64,000 nt of DNA. Source: Escherichia coli. Its GTDB lineage: Bacteria > Pseudomonadota > Gammaproteobacteria > Enterobacterales > Enterobacteriaceae. Numbering within the stretch: the first letter of the stretch is position 1; every line of letters starts with the position of its first letter. Location: NCBI RefSeq assembly GCF_965641715.1, contig NZ_OZ282453.1. The stretch is one strand, 5' to 3'. Positions 42,995 to 47,560 of the stretch are shown here, in pieces. Made by a program: the position numbers and the translations under genes. The notes below the pieces were generated by a model that saw only the letters and a program-made list of their open reading frames with translations, was not told the DNA's origin and searched no databases.

Positions 42995-43741
42995 TTACTT
43001 CGCAATTCCTGGCTGGACGACATTCGGACGCCAGCTCTCCCAGTTAAAATTCACCCATCGCCCGCCGTTCATGGTCATGCGATCCATAATCCGCTCGCCG
43101 AGCAATGTTTTCATGGCCTCATAGTTCAGGTTTGTCAGCATTCCCACGCTACGCATCGACGCTGTCCGTCGATCAATAATCTGGTGCAGTACCACCTGCT
43201 CGTTTTTCGTCTCGCGCTGAATGCCAATTTCATCAAGAACCAGCAGATCCACTTCGCACAGTTCCCGCAAAAATTTTTCGCCTGACTGCCCGTCGTCATA
43301 GCTGGCGTGGAGGGCACTCATAACATCAGCCACGGTAACCACAATCACTGTCTGACCGTCTTTCAGCAGGCGATTCCCGATAGCTGCTGCTAAGTGGTTC
43401 TTCCCGGTACCAGGTTTTCCGCTAAACGCGAAATTTGTGCATCCGGTAACCAGTTCGTCAGCGATAGATTTCGCCAGACTCAACGCGTATCGCTGGCCGT
43501 CGTTCTGCACCTGGTAATTCGCAAACGAGCATTTACGGTGCAACGGCTGGATGCCTGAGCGATTCAGAATTTTTTCCACCCGCAACTGGCGATTCAGGCG
43601 GTTGATCTCCTCGCTACGTTTCTGGCCTTCAGCAAGTTGCCACTCGCGCCACTCCGCTACCGTTCTGAATGGGGCAGTTACATGTGGTGGGGTCAGTCTG
43701 CGGATACGCTCCAGAACGCCTCCTGTCGCAATATTTTTCAT
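42995..43741 (-). CDS. ydaV: DnaC-like replication protein (helicase loader, AAA+)
   Basis: 248 aa with Walker A GKPGTGKNHLA and Walker B LLVLDEIG; matches Rac YdaV. Confidence 0.9.
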   Translation of the reverse strand: MKNIATGGVLERIRRLTPPHVTAPFRTVAEWREWQLAEGQKRSEEINRLNRQLRVEKILNRSGIQPLHRKCSFANYQVQNDGQRYALSLAKSIADELVTGCTNFAFSGKPGTGKNHLAAAIGNRLLKDGQTVIVVTVADVMSALHASYDDGQSGEKFLRELCEVDLLVLDEIGIQRETKNEQVVLHQIIDRRTASMRSVGMLTNLNYEAMKTLLGERIMDRMTMNGGRWVNFNWESWRPNVVQPGIAK

Positions 43742-43747
43742 GGTCTG

Positions 43748-44536
43748 TTACCCCCTGAAGCCTGGCGGGATCGCACTATCCGGTAACGAAACGGTGTTAA
43801 CCTGTCGGAGTAACGTCTCAGGTCGAACACCTTTCGGCGCGAACAAGCCCTGGTATTCATTAGCAATGCTGTGTCGAATCACCTGCTCAGGTGAAAAACC
43901 CTGCTGGCGGAATTTTTCCAGCTCTCGTATCGCCCCGTTAGCGCCCTGCTCCGTTCGAATCGGTTTTCGCAATGCCTGCCTGAACTGAACCCACTCATGC
44001 CAGAGTGTTTCCGGCAACCAGTCAGGCAGCTCGATAGCCTCCGGCTCGAATTTTTTAGACGCTCGTTTTTGGCGAAGGGGATTTAGGGGGAGATCAGTAT
44101 TTATATCTTCCTCTTCCTCTTCCTCTGGTAACGCTTTTTGATCCGTTTGTGTAACGCTGCCAGCGTTACCTTTTCGTTTCAGTTCGCGTATTTTTGTAAC
44201 TCGCTCGTTTGTAACCGCCCGTTTTTTAGAGCTTTTTCCGTTATGACGTTCAAAGTTAGGTAGAGAAAGCCCACCGTCATTTTCGACCAGCCATCCAACC
44301 TGAATTAACGCATCAGCAAAACCAGCCATAAAAGTGATGCGATCTATTGCACTTTTTGTAACGCCGCGAGCGTTACAATCTGCATTACCGTCTATCATTT
44401 GTTGATCCGCCCATGCCCAGAAGCGAATAACCTTCCCTAATGCGGCATCTGGATCAATATTCAGAATCTCAGCAAGCCTGAATATTTCCGGCTTATCCGG
44501 CGTAATAACTTCGAGCTTTATCCAGTTTGAAGCCAT
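43748..44536 (-). CDS. ydaU: Replication initiation protein YdaU-like (DUF1376)
   Basis: 262 aa MASNWIKLEVITPDKPEIFRLAEILNIDPDAALGKV...; Rac gene order; contains the palindromic repeats listed below. Confidence 0.8.
   Translation of the reverse strand: MASNWIKLEVITPDKPEIFRLAEILNIDPDAALGKVIRFWAWADQQMIDGNADCNARGVTKSAIDRITFMAGFADALIQVGWLVENDGGLSLPNFERHNGKSSKKRAVTNERVTKIRELKRKGNAGSVTQTDQKALPEEEEEEDINTDLPLNPLRQKRASKKFEPEAIELPDWLPETLWHEWVQFRQALRKPIRTEQGANGAIRELEKFRQQGFSPEQVIRHSIANEYQGLFAPKGVRPETLLRQVNTVSLPDSAIPPGFRG
44151..44169. repeat. 19-bp palindrome GTAACGCTGCCAGCGTTAC (copy 1 of 3)
   Basis: Perfect inverted repeat; related copies at 44358 and 44550. Confidence 0.8.
44358..44376. repeat. 19-bp palindrome GTAACGCCGCGAGCGTTAC (copy 2 of 3)
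   Basis: Same half-sites GTAACGC / GCGTTAC. Confidence 0.8.
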
Positions 44537-45399: not shown

Positions 45400-45864
45400 A
45401 TGAGAAGAAAACGCGAAGAAATCGCATCGCCGGAAGCTACGCAACGTCTGCGCGCAATCTGGGATGCAAAAAAGAGAGAGCTCAAACTGACTCAGGAGCT
45501 TGCTGCCGAGCTAATGGGTTTTGAGGCGCAATCTGCGGTTAGCCATTATCTCAACGGAAAGGCTCCACTTAATACTGATGCGGCATTAAAATTCGCTGTA
45601 TTACTAAGAGTTAAGCCTGAAGAGTTGAGGCCTGATTTAGCTGATCTGATGAATTACGTCCGTTCCTCAGGAACTTATGACGAAAGTTTCGAAGGCGAAG
45701 GTTGGCGGATGGTTAACAAGCAACAGGCTGATTTACTGGACCTTTTTGATATCCTTCCCGAATCAGAAAAAGCAAAACTAATCGAAAGGCTTAAAGGCCA
45801 GAATGAACTCTACAAAGAAGCGTTTGAAAATATGCTGGCAGCTCAAAAACGCATGAAGAAATAG
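45400..45864 (+). CDS. racR: Prophage repressor RacR-like (XRE-family HTH)
   Basis: 154 aa with HTH (LTQELAAELMGFEAQSAVSHYLNGK); divergent from ydaS/ydaT as in Rac. Confidence 0.8.
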   Translation: MRRKREEIASPEATQRLRAIWDAKKRELKLTQELAAELMGFEAQSAVSHYLNGKAPLNTDAALKFAVLLRVKPEELRPDLADLMNYVRSSGTYDESFEGEGWRMVNKQQADLLDLFDILPESEKAKLIERLKGQNELYKEAFENMLAAQKRMKK

Positions 45865-45883: not shown

Positions 45884-45909
45884 AAACCGCCATTTTTGGC
45901 GGTTTTTTT
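45884..45909 (+). terminator. Rho-independent terminator after racR
   Basis: Hairpin ccgcc-attttt-ggcgg followed by tttttttg. Confidence 0.7.
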
Positions 45910-46243: not shown

Positions 46244-46399
46244 ATGCAAAAAATCGACCTCGGCAACAACGAATCTCTGGTATGTGGCGTGTTTCCCAAT
46301 CAGGACGGCACATTCACAGCCATGACGTATACCAAAAGCAAAACGTTTAAAACCGAAGCTGGCGCACGTCGCTGGTTGGCAATACATTCAGGTGAATAA
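46244..46399 (+). CDS. Small protein (51 aa), YdaF-like by position and length
   Basis: ORF MQKIDLGNNESLVCGVFPNQDGTFTAMTYTKSKTFKTEAGARRWLAIHSGE; not in the ORF track (short). Confidence 0.4.
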   Translation: MQKIDLGNNESLVCGVFPNQDGTFTAMTYTKSKTFKTEAGARRWLAIHSGE

Positions 46400-46400
46400 A

Positions 46401-46763
46401 ATGAACGAAACAGAATTAAAACACGTTATCGCTCTGCTTCTGGAGGATGCAAAGCGCCTCCAGCAGCTGGCCCCAAATGCAGGCACTGAAGAGCGAATTA
46501 TTATGGCTAATAAAAGTCTACATTCTGCATATGATACAAATACAAAGCAAACAGATAAAAATATTATTGTTTATGGGCACAGCGTTAACAGAGAATTTGC
46601 TTACTTTGTTCTGGAAAAATATCAACCTACATTTTGCCGGATAATAGAAGAACTAACATTAAAAGGCAAAGATAAAGAGTTTATTGAAAATGCTGTGGCA
46701 ACGGCAAGCGCAGCAGCCGTTGCCAGTATCAAATCAATGATTGCTCTAGCGATTAACCAATAA
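46401..46763 (+). CDS. Hypothetical protein (about 120 aa) at the position occupied by sieB in Rac
   Basis: ORF 46392..46763 with probable ATG at 46401; soluble and AT-rich; not similar to SieB. Confidence 0.5.
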   Translation: MNETELKHVIALLLEDAKRLQQLAPNAGTEERIIMANKSLHSAYDTNTKQTDKNIIVYGHSVNREFAYFVLEKYQPTFCRIIEELTLKGKDKEFIENAVATASAAAVASIKSMIALAINQ

Positions 46764-46920
46764 ACCCAGGGGGGATATCACGCTGAGGTGGGTTAAGAAG
46801 CTCGGTAAACACCGCTCTCAGGCGTTGAACTTCTGAAATAAAATCGGCTTCACTGCAATCCCAGCCTTTGGGGTGCTTAAGTCGCAAATATTCAAAAACT
46901 AACGAATCAATTTCATTCAT
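46753..46920 (-). CDS. Hypothetical small protein (about 55 aa), convergent with the preceding gene
   Basis: C-terminal part of ORF 46753..47124 starting MNEIDSLVFEYLRLKHPKGWDCSEADFISEVQRL...; the N-terminal extension looks spurious. Confidence 0.3.
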   Translation of the reverse strand: MNEIDSLVFEYLRLKHPKGWDCSEADFISEVQRLRAVFTELLNPPQRDIPPGFIG

Positions 46921-47338
46921 ATTGGATAGCACAATTATTCTCCTTACTAGTTGTGTGAGAACTCCAGTATACCACCGAGCCTGAAGTGGTAAAAAGACAG
47001 GCGCACAACACGAAGGCGCATTTCCGGTATCCATAAAGAGTCGGTCTTGTCTGTTAAATTTAAATGGTGGGAGTGCGCCTCCGGTTGTAAATAACAACAC
47101 TGCTGTGTGTAGTCTTGGCGGCATCAGTTTTTTCTTGAAGTTCGGCTGATGTCCGCCCTTTTTAAAGTGAATTTTGGGATGTGGTGAATGCGGCTAAGCG
47201 CACGTGGCACAGTTAAAAGTCATGTTAGTCCTTATTGGTTTGTGTGGGAAAACCGACAGTAATTGTTAACTGGTTGCAGTCACCTGGAGGCACCAGGCAC
47301 CGCATCCACAAATTTCATTTGTAAAAATGGAGATAATT

Positions 47339-47560
47339 ATGATTGCACATCACTTCGGAACTGATGAAATACCACGTCAGTGTGTGACTCCTGGCGATTA
47401 TGTTCTTCATGAAGGCCGAACATATATTGCATCGGCAAACAATATTAAAAAGCGAAAACTTTATATTCGTAATCTGACCACAAAAACATGCATTACTGAC
47501 TGCATGATTAAAGTCTTCCTCGGTCGTGATGGTTTACCCGTAAAGGCGGAGTCATGGTGA
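47339..47560 (+). CDS. kilR: KilR-like cell-division inhibitor
   Basis: 73 aa [42 protein letters not shown]...; length and position match Rac KilR. Confidence 0.7.

What the first reader, a model, noticed from the sequence alone, without database searches (positions are those of the whole stretch)
46401..46920. Non-Rac cassette at the sieB (superinfection exclusion) position
Between the YdaF-like gene and kilR, where Rac carries sieB, there is instead a soluble protein of about 120 aa with no recognisable family and a convergent ORF of about 55 aa. This slot in the leftward early operon is a known hotspot for exclusion and anti-restriction genes in lambdoid phages.
Basis: inference. Interest (0 to 1): 0.45.

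Follow-up and report, generated by a model that had tools for sequence, protein, structure and literature searches.

The report
Convergent two-gene cassette replacing sieB
In this Rac-like prophage the exclusion gene sieB has been swapped for a rare, conserved pair of converging genes of unknown function, one of which is a small YdiH-family protein whose tail copies the tail of the replication proteins DnaT and the phage initiator.

Summary
About 600 bp (46400-46999) replace the whole of sieB between ydaF and kilR. Only 8 of 5426 complete E. coli genomes carry the whole cassette.

It holds two genes under purifying selection (dN/dS 0.1-0.4):
- Gene A (46401-46763, +, 120 aa) lies in the leftward early operon.
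- Gene B (46932-46753, -, 59 aa, GTG start) converges on A, overlaps it by 11 nt and has its own conserved extended -10 promoter.

"No recognisable family" is only partly right.
- A's first ~46 residues are a widespread phage module found in four PHROGs, all of unknown function.
- A's C-terminal domain is related to phrog_23495 and also occurs as stand-alone 72-105 aa proteins.
- B is a divergent YdiH-family (PF15930) protein.

The A C-domain gene and a YdiH-like gene converge in 13 of the 14 lineages examined, across Escherichia, Salmonella, Enterobacter, Lelliottia and metagenomes, and in at least two genome slots. They therefore look like one functional module.

B's disordered tail (..DIPPGFIG*) resembles the extreme C-terminus of host DnaT and of the prophage's DnaT-like initiator (..IPPGFRG*). 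That initiator lies directly upstream of a DnaC paralog.

My best, unproven reading is that B is a lysogen-expressed tail decoy acting on DnaC-type helicase loading, and that A counteracts it after induction. No exclusion function has been shown.

The parts
46401..46763 (+). Gene A, 120 aa, in the leftward early operon directly after ydaF. It has two modules joined by a low-confidence linker.
   Evidence: ORF and Shine-Dalgarno sequence. 98% identical protein P0001 found on 42 contigs, and full-length homologues at 45-66% identity. dN/dS 0.11-0.24. AF2 model with pLDDT 74: helical hairpin, beta-hairpin and two long helices.
46401..46538 (+). N-module of A (residues 1-46, ELKHVIALLLEDAKRLQQxxPNAGTExRI). 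A widespread phage module joined to many different C-termini. Its DNA also serves as a left recombination junction.
   Evidence: phrog_30817, 12693, 2982 and 32391 all match residues 1-47 only. 177 database proteins share only this part. Its DNA occurs in 270 of 5426 E. coli genomes, with homology ending near codon 30.
46554..46760 (+). C-domain of A (residues about 52-120: beta-hairpin plus two helices). It also exists as stand-alone 72-105 aa phage proteins.
   Evidence: A profile search of 1.84 billion representative proteins gave 28 hits, mostly 72-105 aa. 16 of 24 aligned members hit phrog_23495. pLDDT is 85-94 over residues 70-100.
46753..46932 (-). Gene B, 59 aa (GTG start). A divergent YdiH-family small protein made of two helices and a disordered C-terminal tail.
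   Evidence: ORF. PGAP makes the same call. A homologue is present in every locus with full-length A. dN/dS 0.09-0.40. hhalign against K-12 YdiH gives probability 86%, E 5e-6. A relative about 44% identical scores 29.5 bits on PF15930, above the 27-bit cut-off. AF2 gives helices at B residues 2-19 and 28-46.
46756..46794 (-). Tail of B (residues 47-59, LNPPQRDIPPGFIG). It resembles the extreme C-terminus of DnaT and of the prophage initiator.
   Evidence: Tail comparison. PSSM rank test. hhalign aligns only these 8 residues to DnaT 171-178. pLDDT 42-52. Codons differ at synonymous sites from the initiator tail.
46966..46993 (-). Promoter P_B for gene B: TTTACC, 16 nt, TG-n-TATACT (extended -10).
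   Evidence: Consensus scan. Conserved in the Rac-slot loci examined, more weakly in L010 and L023, across three start-codon types. Not found in the tail-gene-slot loci L024 and L031. The same GGTGGTATACTG lies upstream of K-12 ydiH, whose promoter is experimentally active in stationary phase (PMC4488433).
46753..46763 (.). 3' overlap of the convergent genes A and B. The overlap is 11 nt here and 44-185 nt in homologous loci.
   Evidence: Coordinates.
43748..44536 (-). Context: replication initiator (262 aa) ending ..VSLPDSAIPPGFRG*. This is the DnaT-type tail that B's tail resembles.
   Evidence: Translation. E. coli DnaT ends ..VSEPDSQIPPGFRG*. PGAP names the homologue in DS26-1 'DnaT-like ssDNA-binding domain-containing protein'.
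42995..43741 (-). Context: YdaV, a DnaC paralog encoded directly downstream of the tail-bearing initiator.
   Evidence: 49% identity to E. coli DnaC over 243 residues. A homologue follows every tail-bearing initiator examined.
46244..46399 (+). Context: ydaF (DUF1391), the left boundary of the replacement.
   Evidence: PF07151, E 1.8e-28. Alignment break.
47339..47560 (+). Context: kilR, the next gene of the leftward operon. Leftward transcripts must cross B in antisense to reach it.
   Evidence: phrog_294, E 5e-38. PGAP kilR in PEC41.

Best explanation
The cassette is a self-contained two-gene module.

Shown:
- Gene B is a 59-aa YdiH-family protein with its own conserved extended -10 promoter.
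- B points against the leftward early operon, in the place and orientation of sieB.
- Gene A belongs to that early operon and converges on B with overlapping 3' ends.
- The A C-domain and the YdiH-like gene travel together in almost every lineage.
- B ends in a disordered tail that resembles the conserved extreme C-terminus of DnaT and of the prophage's DnaT-like initiator. Those proteins are always encoded next to DnaC or a DnaC paralog.

Inferred:
- B is made in the lysogen. Its tail acts as a decoy for whatever site binds the DnaT/initiator tail during DnaB-DnaC(YdaV) helicase loading.
- This restrains replication of Rac-type replicons, either a superinfecting relative or the resident prophage.
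- After induction, transcription from the early promoter runs head-on into P_B and lowers B. The early protein A then counteracts or replaces B so that the phage's own replication can proceed.

Functionally this would be an analogue of sieB/esc that acts on replication initiation rather than on the membrane.
For: - Position and orientation match sieB.
- P_B is conserved across loci whose repressors differ. It has the same -10 block as the experimentally active K-12 ydiH promoter.
- A C-domain and YdiH-like genes converge in 13 of the 14 lineages examined. This includes stand-alone C-domain genes that lack the N-module, and a different slot among tail genes.
- B tails are IPPGFIG*, IPSGFVG* and VPDGFVSTL*. 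Initiator and DnaT tails are IP[PDK]GFRG*, carried on at least 4 unrelated initiator bodies.
- In a PSSM test on the C-termini of 1972 ORFs, the B proteins are the best non-initiator hits. They score 12.6-17.4, against a background of -16 +/- 6.4 and a best random ORF of 9.5.
- The resemblance is at peptide level, not DNA level.
- An initiator with a ..PEGFVVING* tail shows that GFV variants occur naturally in initiators.
- The tail is predicted disordered while the B core is helical, as expected for a short docking motif.
- Every tail-bearing initiator is followed by a DnaC paralog.
- In one lineage the C-domain gene sits directly downstream of an initiator and a DnaC-like gene. This links the other partner to the same pathway.
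Against: - No experiment or structure ties the DnaT 154-179 tail to any partner. Reviews state that no DnaT-DnaC interaction is documented (PMC5778457, PMC11087952).
- The tail match is short (7 of 11 residues) and was noticed post hoc.
- Other YdiH-family members of the module have different tails. L019 has ..SNEWRHF* although its initiator carries IPPGFRG*. The variable third position of the motif does not covary between B and the initiator within a locus.
- The AF2 model of an A C-domain/linker/B fusion gave pTM 0.36. An A-B complex is therefore not supported, although the test is weak.
- There is no hit to any defence or anti-defence model.
- B expression in lysogens is inferred from sequence only.
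Confidence: 0.3

Rival explanations
1. Safety-catch or toxin-antidote pair unrelated to replication. The early protein A (C-domain) harms the host, as its neighbour KilR does. The constitutively made small protein B neutralises leaky A in the lysogen. Full induction swamps B.
For: - The A C-domain and B genes are strictly linked in different slots.
- The opposed promoters would give reciprocal expression.
- The neighbouring early genes (kilR, ydaS/ydaT-like) are known toxic prophage genes.
Against: - The AF2 fusion gave no confident A-B complex (pTM 0.36).
- There is no similarity to any known toxin or antitoxin.
- This model leaves the conserved DnaT-like tail of B unexplained.
- The P0131 lineage carries the C-domain gene without B.
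Confidence: 0.2
2. SieB-like superinfection exclusion or abortive infection by an unknown route. B excludes heterologous phages and A plays the self-protection role of Esc, with no link to DnaT or DnaC.
For: - The cassette replaces sieB precisely, in the same orientation and with its own promoter.
- The slot carries alternative accessory cargo in other strains.
- Antisense control is known at P22 sieB (my own knowledge of Ranade and Poteete 1993; not checked here).
Against: - B is a soluble 59-aa two-helix protein with no similarity to the membrane protein SieB.
- There are no PADLOC hits.
- The chromosomal homologue ydiH sits outside any annotated prophage genes in the 8-kb region examined.
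- The evidence is positional only.
Confidence: 0.15
3. The main role is transcriptional. P_B fires against the leftward operon and, through collision and antisense RNA, damps read-through into the toxic kilR and rec genes in lysogens. The B peptide is secondary.
For: - P_B is the most conserved DNA of the cassette. It is nearly identical between loci whose B proteins are only distantly related, for example L026 and the window.
- Both the sieB cassette and this cassette place a convergent promoter between the early promoter and kilR.
- The genes overlap at their 3' ends.
Against: - B is under purifying selection as a protein (dN/dS 0.09-0.40). Its tail motif is conserved while neighbouring residues vary.
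- The pair also occurs among tail genes, where there is no kilR.
Confidence: 0.15
4. A is an early anti-defence or host-takeover protein. The conserved N-module would be an adaptor and the C-domain a variable effector. B would be an unrelated neighbouring moron.
For: - The N-module is fused to many unrelated C-termini in early operons of many enterobacterial prophages, a pattern typical of diversifying accessory genes.
- A lies in the early-left operon next to kil.
Against: - The C-domain, not the N-module, is what co-occurs with B, in 13 of 14 lineages. 'Unrelated neighbour' is therefore unlikely.
- There is no structural or sequence match to known anti-defence proteins.
Confidence: 0.1

Closest known systems
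sieB / esc superinfection-exclusion locus of Rac, lambda and P22
   Same: Same slot between the immunity region and kil. In Rac, the same orientation against the early operon. A gene with its own promoter that can be expressed from the prophage.
   Different: No sequence similarity. SieB is a 162-aa membrane protein, whereas B is a 59-aa soluble two-helix protein. Here the second component is a separate convergent gene, not an internal translation product. No exclusion phenotype is known.
YdiH (E. coli K-12 b1685, Pfam PF15930, unknown function)
   Same: B aligns over 42 columns with YdiH (hhalign probability 86%, E 5e-6). Closer relatives of B pass the Pfam cut-off. The two share the same GGTGGTATACTG -10 block upstream. 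Both end in a tail with an aromatic residue near the C-terminus.
   Different: B itself does not reach any Pfam score. K-12 ydiH is a chromosomal orphan with no convergent C-domain partner and lacks the IPPGF tail.
C-terminal tail of primosomal protein DnaT (residues about 160-179) and of DnaT-like phage initiators
   Same: The motif P-x-x-[DE]-[IV]-P-x-G-F-x-G lies at the extreme C-terminus. The third position varies in both sets.
   Different: B has none of the DnaT three-helix ssDNA-binding domain; hhalign aligns only 8 residues. B has I or V where DnaT has R. The partner and function of the DnaT tail are themselves unknown (PMC4132743, PMC13377028).
phrog_23495 and the N-module PHROGs (30817, 12693, 2982, 32391)
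   Same: A's two halves belong to, or are related to, these phage protein families.
   Different: All are annotated 'unknown function'. The window's own C-domain does not reach E 0.01 against phrog_23495. The fusion of the two modules and the pairing with a YdiH-like gene are not recorded in either library.

Membership tests
SieB (superinfection exclusion protein B) | Sequence similarity to Rac, lambda or P22 SieB, a membrane protein of about 160-190 aa | tested here: not met
   The DNA alignment with a sieB-carrying Rac shows no homology across 46400-46970. No Pfam or PHROG SieB hit for A, B or the 123-aa extended ORF. B's maximum hydropathy is 0.29.
SieB (superinfection exclusion protein B) | Exclusion of superinfecting phage by the lysogen | not testable with these tools
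   Needs plating assays.
YdiH family (PF15930) | Score above the Pfam gathering threshold (27 bits) | tested here: not met
   The window's B and its Salmonella and Enterobacter orthologues give no hit even at E 10. The L011 orthologue (about 44% identical to B) scores 29.5 bits, E 8.6e-7. P0148 and P0149 carry PF15930 in precomputed tables.
YdiH family (PF15930) | Profile-level homology to E. coli YdiH over the two-helix core | tested here: met
   hhalign of the B alignment against K-12 YdiH: probability 86%, E 5.1e-6, 42 columns. Shared promoter block.
phrog_23495 (A C-domain) | HMM match of the C-terminal domain | tested here: inconclusive
   The window's C-domain alone gives no hit at E 0.01. 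However, 16 of 24 proteins found with its profile (E down to 2e-36) hit phrog_23495, with a best E of 2e-47.
N-module PHROGs 30817 / 12693 / 2982 / 32391 | HMM match of residues 1-47 | tested here: met
   E 6e-19, 8.7e-16, 1.7e-13 and 1.8e-10, all on residues 1-40 to 1-48 only.
DnaT / DnaT-like ssDNA-binding domain (PF17948) | Three-helix ssDNA-binding domain | tested here: not met
   hhalign of the B profile against DnaT aligns only the last 8 residues (probability 2.9%). The A C-domain profile against DnaT gives nothing.
DnaT / DnaT-like ssDNA-binding domain (PF17948) | Extreme C-terminal motif ..PDxxIPxGFRG* | tested here: inconclusive
   B has ..PPQRDIPPGFIG*. It ranks directly after the true initiators among 1972 ORF C-termini, but it lacks the Arg and the preceding VN-x-[VI]S block.
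Known anti-phage defence or toxin-antitoxin systems (PADLOC-DB, Pfam, NCBIfam) | HMM match to any component | tested here: not met
   No families for A or B in PADLOC. Only sub-threshold noise in Pfam and NCBIfam.

The most novel reading that the evidence does not exclude
B is a phage-encoded decoy of the DnaT/initiator C-terminal tail. It occupies the still unidentified docking site through which DnaT and DnaT-like phage initiators hand over to DnaB-DnaC. This would give the lysogen a replication-level exclusion system, with A as its antidote. It would also give experimenters a natural 59-aa probe for the long-unresolved question of how DnaT recruits the helicase-loader complex, and a first functional clue for the YdiH family.
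Probability: 0.2. Interest if true: 0.75.

Novelty: new variant of a known kind. Interest (0 to 1): 0.5.

Why it matters
The sieB slot of lambdoid prophages is where lysogens keep genes that decide the fate of incoming phages. Here it holds a different, conserved two-gene module, and neither of its proteins has a known function.

The analysis gives the first genomic context for the YdiH family (PF15930) and for phrog_23495. It shows that the two form a convergent pair with a dedicated promoter.

It also points to a specific, testable link to DnaC-type helicase loading through a copy of the DnaT tail. The literature read here says that how DnaT recruits DnaB-DnaC is still unknown. A small natural mimic of the DnaT tail would be a useful handle on that question.

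If the link is false, this is still a well-delimited accessory cassette suitable for exclusion assays.

Tried and rejected
- Foldseek of the A model against the PDB and BFVD gave no match at E <= 1e-3, only generic helical hairpins. The afdb50 library was unavailable.
- PDB sequence searches with the A and B profiles found nothing.
- Pfam, NCBIfam and PADLOC gave only sub-threshold noise for A and B, such as UL42, sortase and REase-ARP. I rejected these hits.
- The 123-aa extended minus-strand ORF (47124-46753) is rejected as the gene. Its N-terminal 64 residues lie over conserved non-coding DNA and the promoter, and homologues start at the Shine-Dalgarno-linked GTG, TTG or ATG.
- The genome-contig scan with the A alignment returned only N-module relatives.
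- No isolate phage in INPHARED carries B or a full-length A.
- hhalign of the A C-domain against DnaT gave no relation.
- I looked for covariation between the B tail and the initiator tail and found none. L019 has a tail-less B variant alongside a tail-bearing initiator.
- The AF2 model of the A C-domain, a 30-residue linker and B on a paired alignment of 11 sequences gave pTM 0.36. This is not evidence for a complex. It is also not strong evidence against one, because no PAE or coordinates were available.
- The idea that the tail is a recent DNA copy of the initiator's 3' end is rejected, because the codons differ at synonymous sites.
- From my own knowledge, I considered readings of the tail as a beta-clamp-binding motif or an SSB-tip motif and set them aside. 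The Gln is not conserved, and the motif is followed by 1-9 further residues in the variants seen.
- Literature searches on YdiH, YdaU/YdaV and sieB/kilR gave no functional data.

Full report
**1. Observation**

The region is the immunity and early-left part of a Rac-like prophage. The plus strand carries the following genes:
- a repressor (45400-45864), followed by a terminator-like hairpin (45884-45905);
- a ydaG-like ORF and ydaF (DUF1391, 46244-46399);
- the 120-aa ORF A (46401-46763);
- kilR (47339-47560), ydaE, a racC-like gene and recE.

The minus strand carries the cro-like and ydaT-like genes, an initiator (43748-44536) and ydaV (42995-43741).

The convergent small ORF runs from 46932 (GTG, 59 aa) or 46920 (ATG, 55 aa) to 46753. 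The GTG has a TAAGGAG Shine-Dalgarno sequence 7 nt upstream, and PGAP annotates the same 59-aa product in strain PEC41. A and B overlap by 11 nt.

**2. Replacement of sieB**

I aligned the window with strain PEC41 (99.3% identical) and with the sieB-carrying Rac phage vB_EcoS-666R9. Homology to the sieB type ends at the ydaF stop and resumes at about 46971-47000.

The annotated 203-aa SieB of that phage includes the 162-aa sequence that begins MLDVFTPLLK. The point where homology resumes lies about 70 nt upstream of that start. The entire sieB reading frame is therefore replaced.

The right flank (46941-47130) occurs in 1801 of 5426 complete E. coli genomes. The whole cassette occurs in 8. The cassette has GC 0.40 against 0.50 for the window.

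**3. Both ORFs are genes**

A has a 98% identical cluster (P0001, 42 contigs). It also has full-length homologues at 45-66% identity in Salmonella, Enterobacter and metagenomes. In these loci the gene lies in Rac-like prophages between the repressor and kilR or ydaE.

Protein databases list only 2-5 relatives of B. Six-frame translation nevertheless finds a B homologue on the opposite strand in every locus with a full-length A. It always converges on A and overlaps its 3' end.

Pairwise dN/dS is 0.11-0.24 for A and 0.09-0.40 for B.

**4. Gene A has two modules**

Residues 1-46 match four PHROG families of unknown function (E 6e-19 to 2e-10), and only over their first 40-48 positions. 177 database proteins share this module, and most share only it. 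They have many unrelated C-termini, and in one common E. coli protein the module lies in the C-terminal half.

The module's DNA occurs in 270 of 5426 E. coli genomes, with homology typically ending near codon 30. In strain DS26-1 the same stub is followed by a GhoS-like gene and a DUF1883 gene instead. The module therefore doubles as a recombination junction of a cargo hotspot.

A profile of the C-terminal 72 residues was searched against 1.84 billion representative proteins. It found 28 proteins, mostly stand-alone and 72-105 aa long. 16 of 24 aligned members hit phrog_23495, also of unknown function.

AF2 (pLDDT 74) predicts a helical hairpin, a low-confidence linker, a beta-hairpin and two long helices. 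Foldseek finds no significant match in the PDB or BFVD.

**5. Gene B is a divergent YdiH-family protein with its own promoter**

The window's B gives no Pfam hit. However:
- an orthologue about 44% identical (L011/L019) scores 29.5 bits on PF15930, whose cut-off is 27;
- two further relatives carry PF15930;
- the B profile aligns with E. coli K-12 YdiH at probability 86%, E 5e-6.

Upstream of B lies TTTACC, 16 nt, TG-n-TATACT (46993-46966). This block, the following GGAGTTCTCACAC and the Shine-Dalgarno sequence are conserved in the Rac-slot loci examined, more weakly in L010 and L023. The start codon varies (GTG, TTG or ATG) and the repressors differ. The two loci where the pair sits among tail genes (L024, L031) have a different upstream sequence.

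K-12 ydiH has the same GGTGGTATACTG upstream. Its promoter has been shown to be active in stationary phase (PMC4488433). B is thus very probably transcribed independently of the early operon, as sieB is.

**6. The A C-domain and B form a module**

A YdiH-like gene converges on the C-domain gene in all of the following:
- the window lineage (L001, L014-L017);
- L003/L004, L005, L010, L011/L019, L012, L013 and L018;
- loci where the C-domain protein stands alone without the N-module: L022 (P0141 with P0149, 185-nt overlap), L023, L024, L026 and L031.

In L024 and L031 the pair sits among tail genes rather than in the early operon.

N-module proteins with other C-termini have no B (loci L006-L009).

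The one exception is the P0131 lineage. There the C-domain gene has no B and lies directly downstream of an initiator and a DnaC-like gene.

**7. The tail of B**

B ends ..LNPPQRDIPPGFIG*. The prophage initiator ends ..VSLPDSAIPPGFRG*.

The same tail, (V/I)S-x-PD-x-x-(I/V)P-x-GFRG*, closes the initiators of all related loci, although these have at least four unrelated N-terminal bodies. E. coli DnaT ends ..VSEPDSQIPPGFRG*. Each of these genes is followed by dnaC or a DnaC paralog; YdaV is 49% identical to DnaC.

B orthologues keep [IV]P-x-GF while the surrounding residues diverge: IPSGFVG*, VPDGFVSTL*, VPPGFVSTPKPSES*.

I built a PSSM from nine initiator tails and scored the C-termini of 1972 stop-to-stop ORFs. 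After the initiators, the best scores are B proteins (17.4, 12.9 and 12.6 for the window's B). The background is -16 +/- 6.4, and the best unrelated ORF scores 9.5.

The codons differ at synonymous positions, so this is not a recent DNA copy. One initiator ends ..PEGFVVING*, which shows that GFV variants exist among initiators. AF2 predicts the tail as disordered (pLDDT 42-52), next to a two-helix core with pLDDT about 80.

The caveats are as follows:
- The motif is short.
- Other module members have different tails (..SNEWRHF*, ..KGFDLKDFDG*, ..SNDGF*, and K-12's ..YFAWRLGVH*). These share only an aromatic residue near the end.
- L019 combines a tail-less B with a tail-bearing initiator.

**8. 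What the literature says**

DnaT residues 154-179 are absent from the crystal structure. Their removal roughly doubles the apparent Kd for ssDNA and lowers cooperativity (PMC4132743).

The 2026 preprimosome structures describe DnaT's C-terminal domain, linker and N-terminal domain. They leave the recruitment of DnaB-DnaC unknown (PMC13377028).

Reviews and a 2024 study state that no DnaT-DnaC interaction has been documented, despite the shared operon (PMC5778457, PMC11087952).

The partner of the tail is therefore unknown. The decoy idea cannot be checked against existing data.

**9. Mechanism**

Shown:
- the cassette replaces sieB;
- it contains two selected genes;
- B has its own promoter, opposed to the early operon;
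- the pair is conserved;
- B's tail resembles the DnaT/initiator tail.

Inferred (confidence about 0.3):
- B is expressed in the lysogen, and its tail competes for the site that receives the DnaT/initiator tail during DnaC-type helicase loading;
- this restrains Rac-type replicons;
- induction lowers B through head-on transcription, and A counteracts it.

The rivals are:
- an A/B safety-catch or toxin-antidote pair;
- a SieB-like exclusion with an unknown mechanism;
- a mainly transcriptional brake on read-through into kilR;
- an anti-defence role for A.

An AF2 model of an A C-domain/linker/B fusion gave pTM 0.36. It neither supports nor excludes an A-B complex.

**10. Verdict**

The finding is a real and well-delimited accessory cassette.

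It is not a member of the SieB family. Its parts belong to, or border on, database families of unknown function.

The convergent pairing, the dedicated promoter shared with ydiH and the DnaT-like tail were not found in any paper or family description searched here. I rate it a new variant of the known kind 'lysogen-expressed accessory module in the exclusion slot of lambdoid prophages'. Interest is moderate, with a higher-interest but unproven replication-decoy reading.

Noticed in passing
window 43748-44536 (-) and 42995-43741 (-); L020 (K-12 dnaT-dnaC): The prophage replication initiators of all related loci have at least four unrelated N-terminal bodies. All nevertheless end in the same ~19-residue tail as host DnaT (..RDVNxxSxPDxxIPxGFRG*), and each is followed by a DnaC paralog that is 47-50% identical to DnaC. 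The tail looks like a portable docking peptide of the dnaT-dnaC pathway. The papers read here do not describe its partner.
   Followed up: partly
window 47104-47158 (+): A DicF-like RNA lies between the cassette and kilR. It scores 41.1 bits on Rfam RF00039 (E 5.7e-7, full model length), below the gathering score of 48. It sits in the flank shared by 1801 E. coli genomes. A weaker STnc100-like match lies at 47179-47305.
   Followed up: no
L001 3022-3141 (strain PEC41), equivalent to window 46401-46520: PGAP annotates only the first 40 codons of gene A as a pseudogene ('missing C-terminus'). The 120-codon frame is in fact intact there, with SNPs only. The same happens for the N-module stub in DS26-1. 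Protein evidence that covers only the shared N-module seems to mislead the pipeline.
   Followed up: partly
L021 3935-4123 (-) and upstream (K-12 ydiH): K-12 ydiH has the same GGTGGTATACTG extended -10 block as the prophage gene B, but no convergent C-domain partner. ydiH may be a domesticated orphan of this phage module, or the reverse.
   Followed up: partly
L025 2507-3720 (E. coli DS26-1): In another Rac-like prophage the same slot, behind the same N-module stub, carries a GhoS-like antitoxin gene and a DUF1883 gene, both convergent to the early operon. This is further cargo of the hotspot.
   Followed up: no
L027 1692-1919, L028 1760-1972, L030 3001-3210: In a small-genome phage lineage, a stand-alone relative of A's C-domain lies immediately downstream of the initiator and DnaC-like genes and before the lysis genes, with no YdiH-like partner. 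In L028 the initiator ends ..RPSNPEGFVVING*.
   Followed up: partly
L024 and L031 (about 3001-3454 in L031): The same convergent pair (C-domain protein plus YdiH-like protein) occurs between tail-region genes of another phage type. The pair therefore moves as a unit between genome slots.
   Followed up: partly
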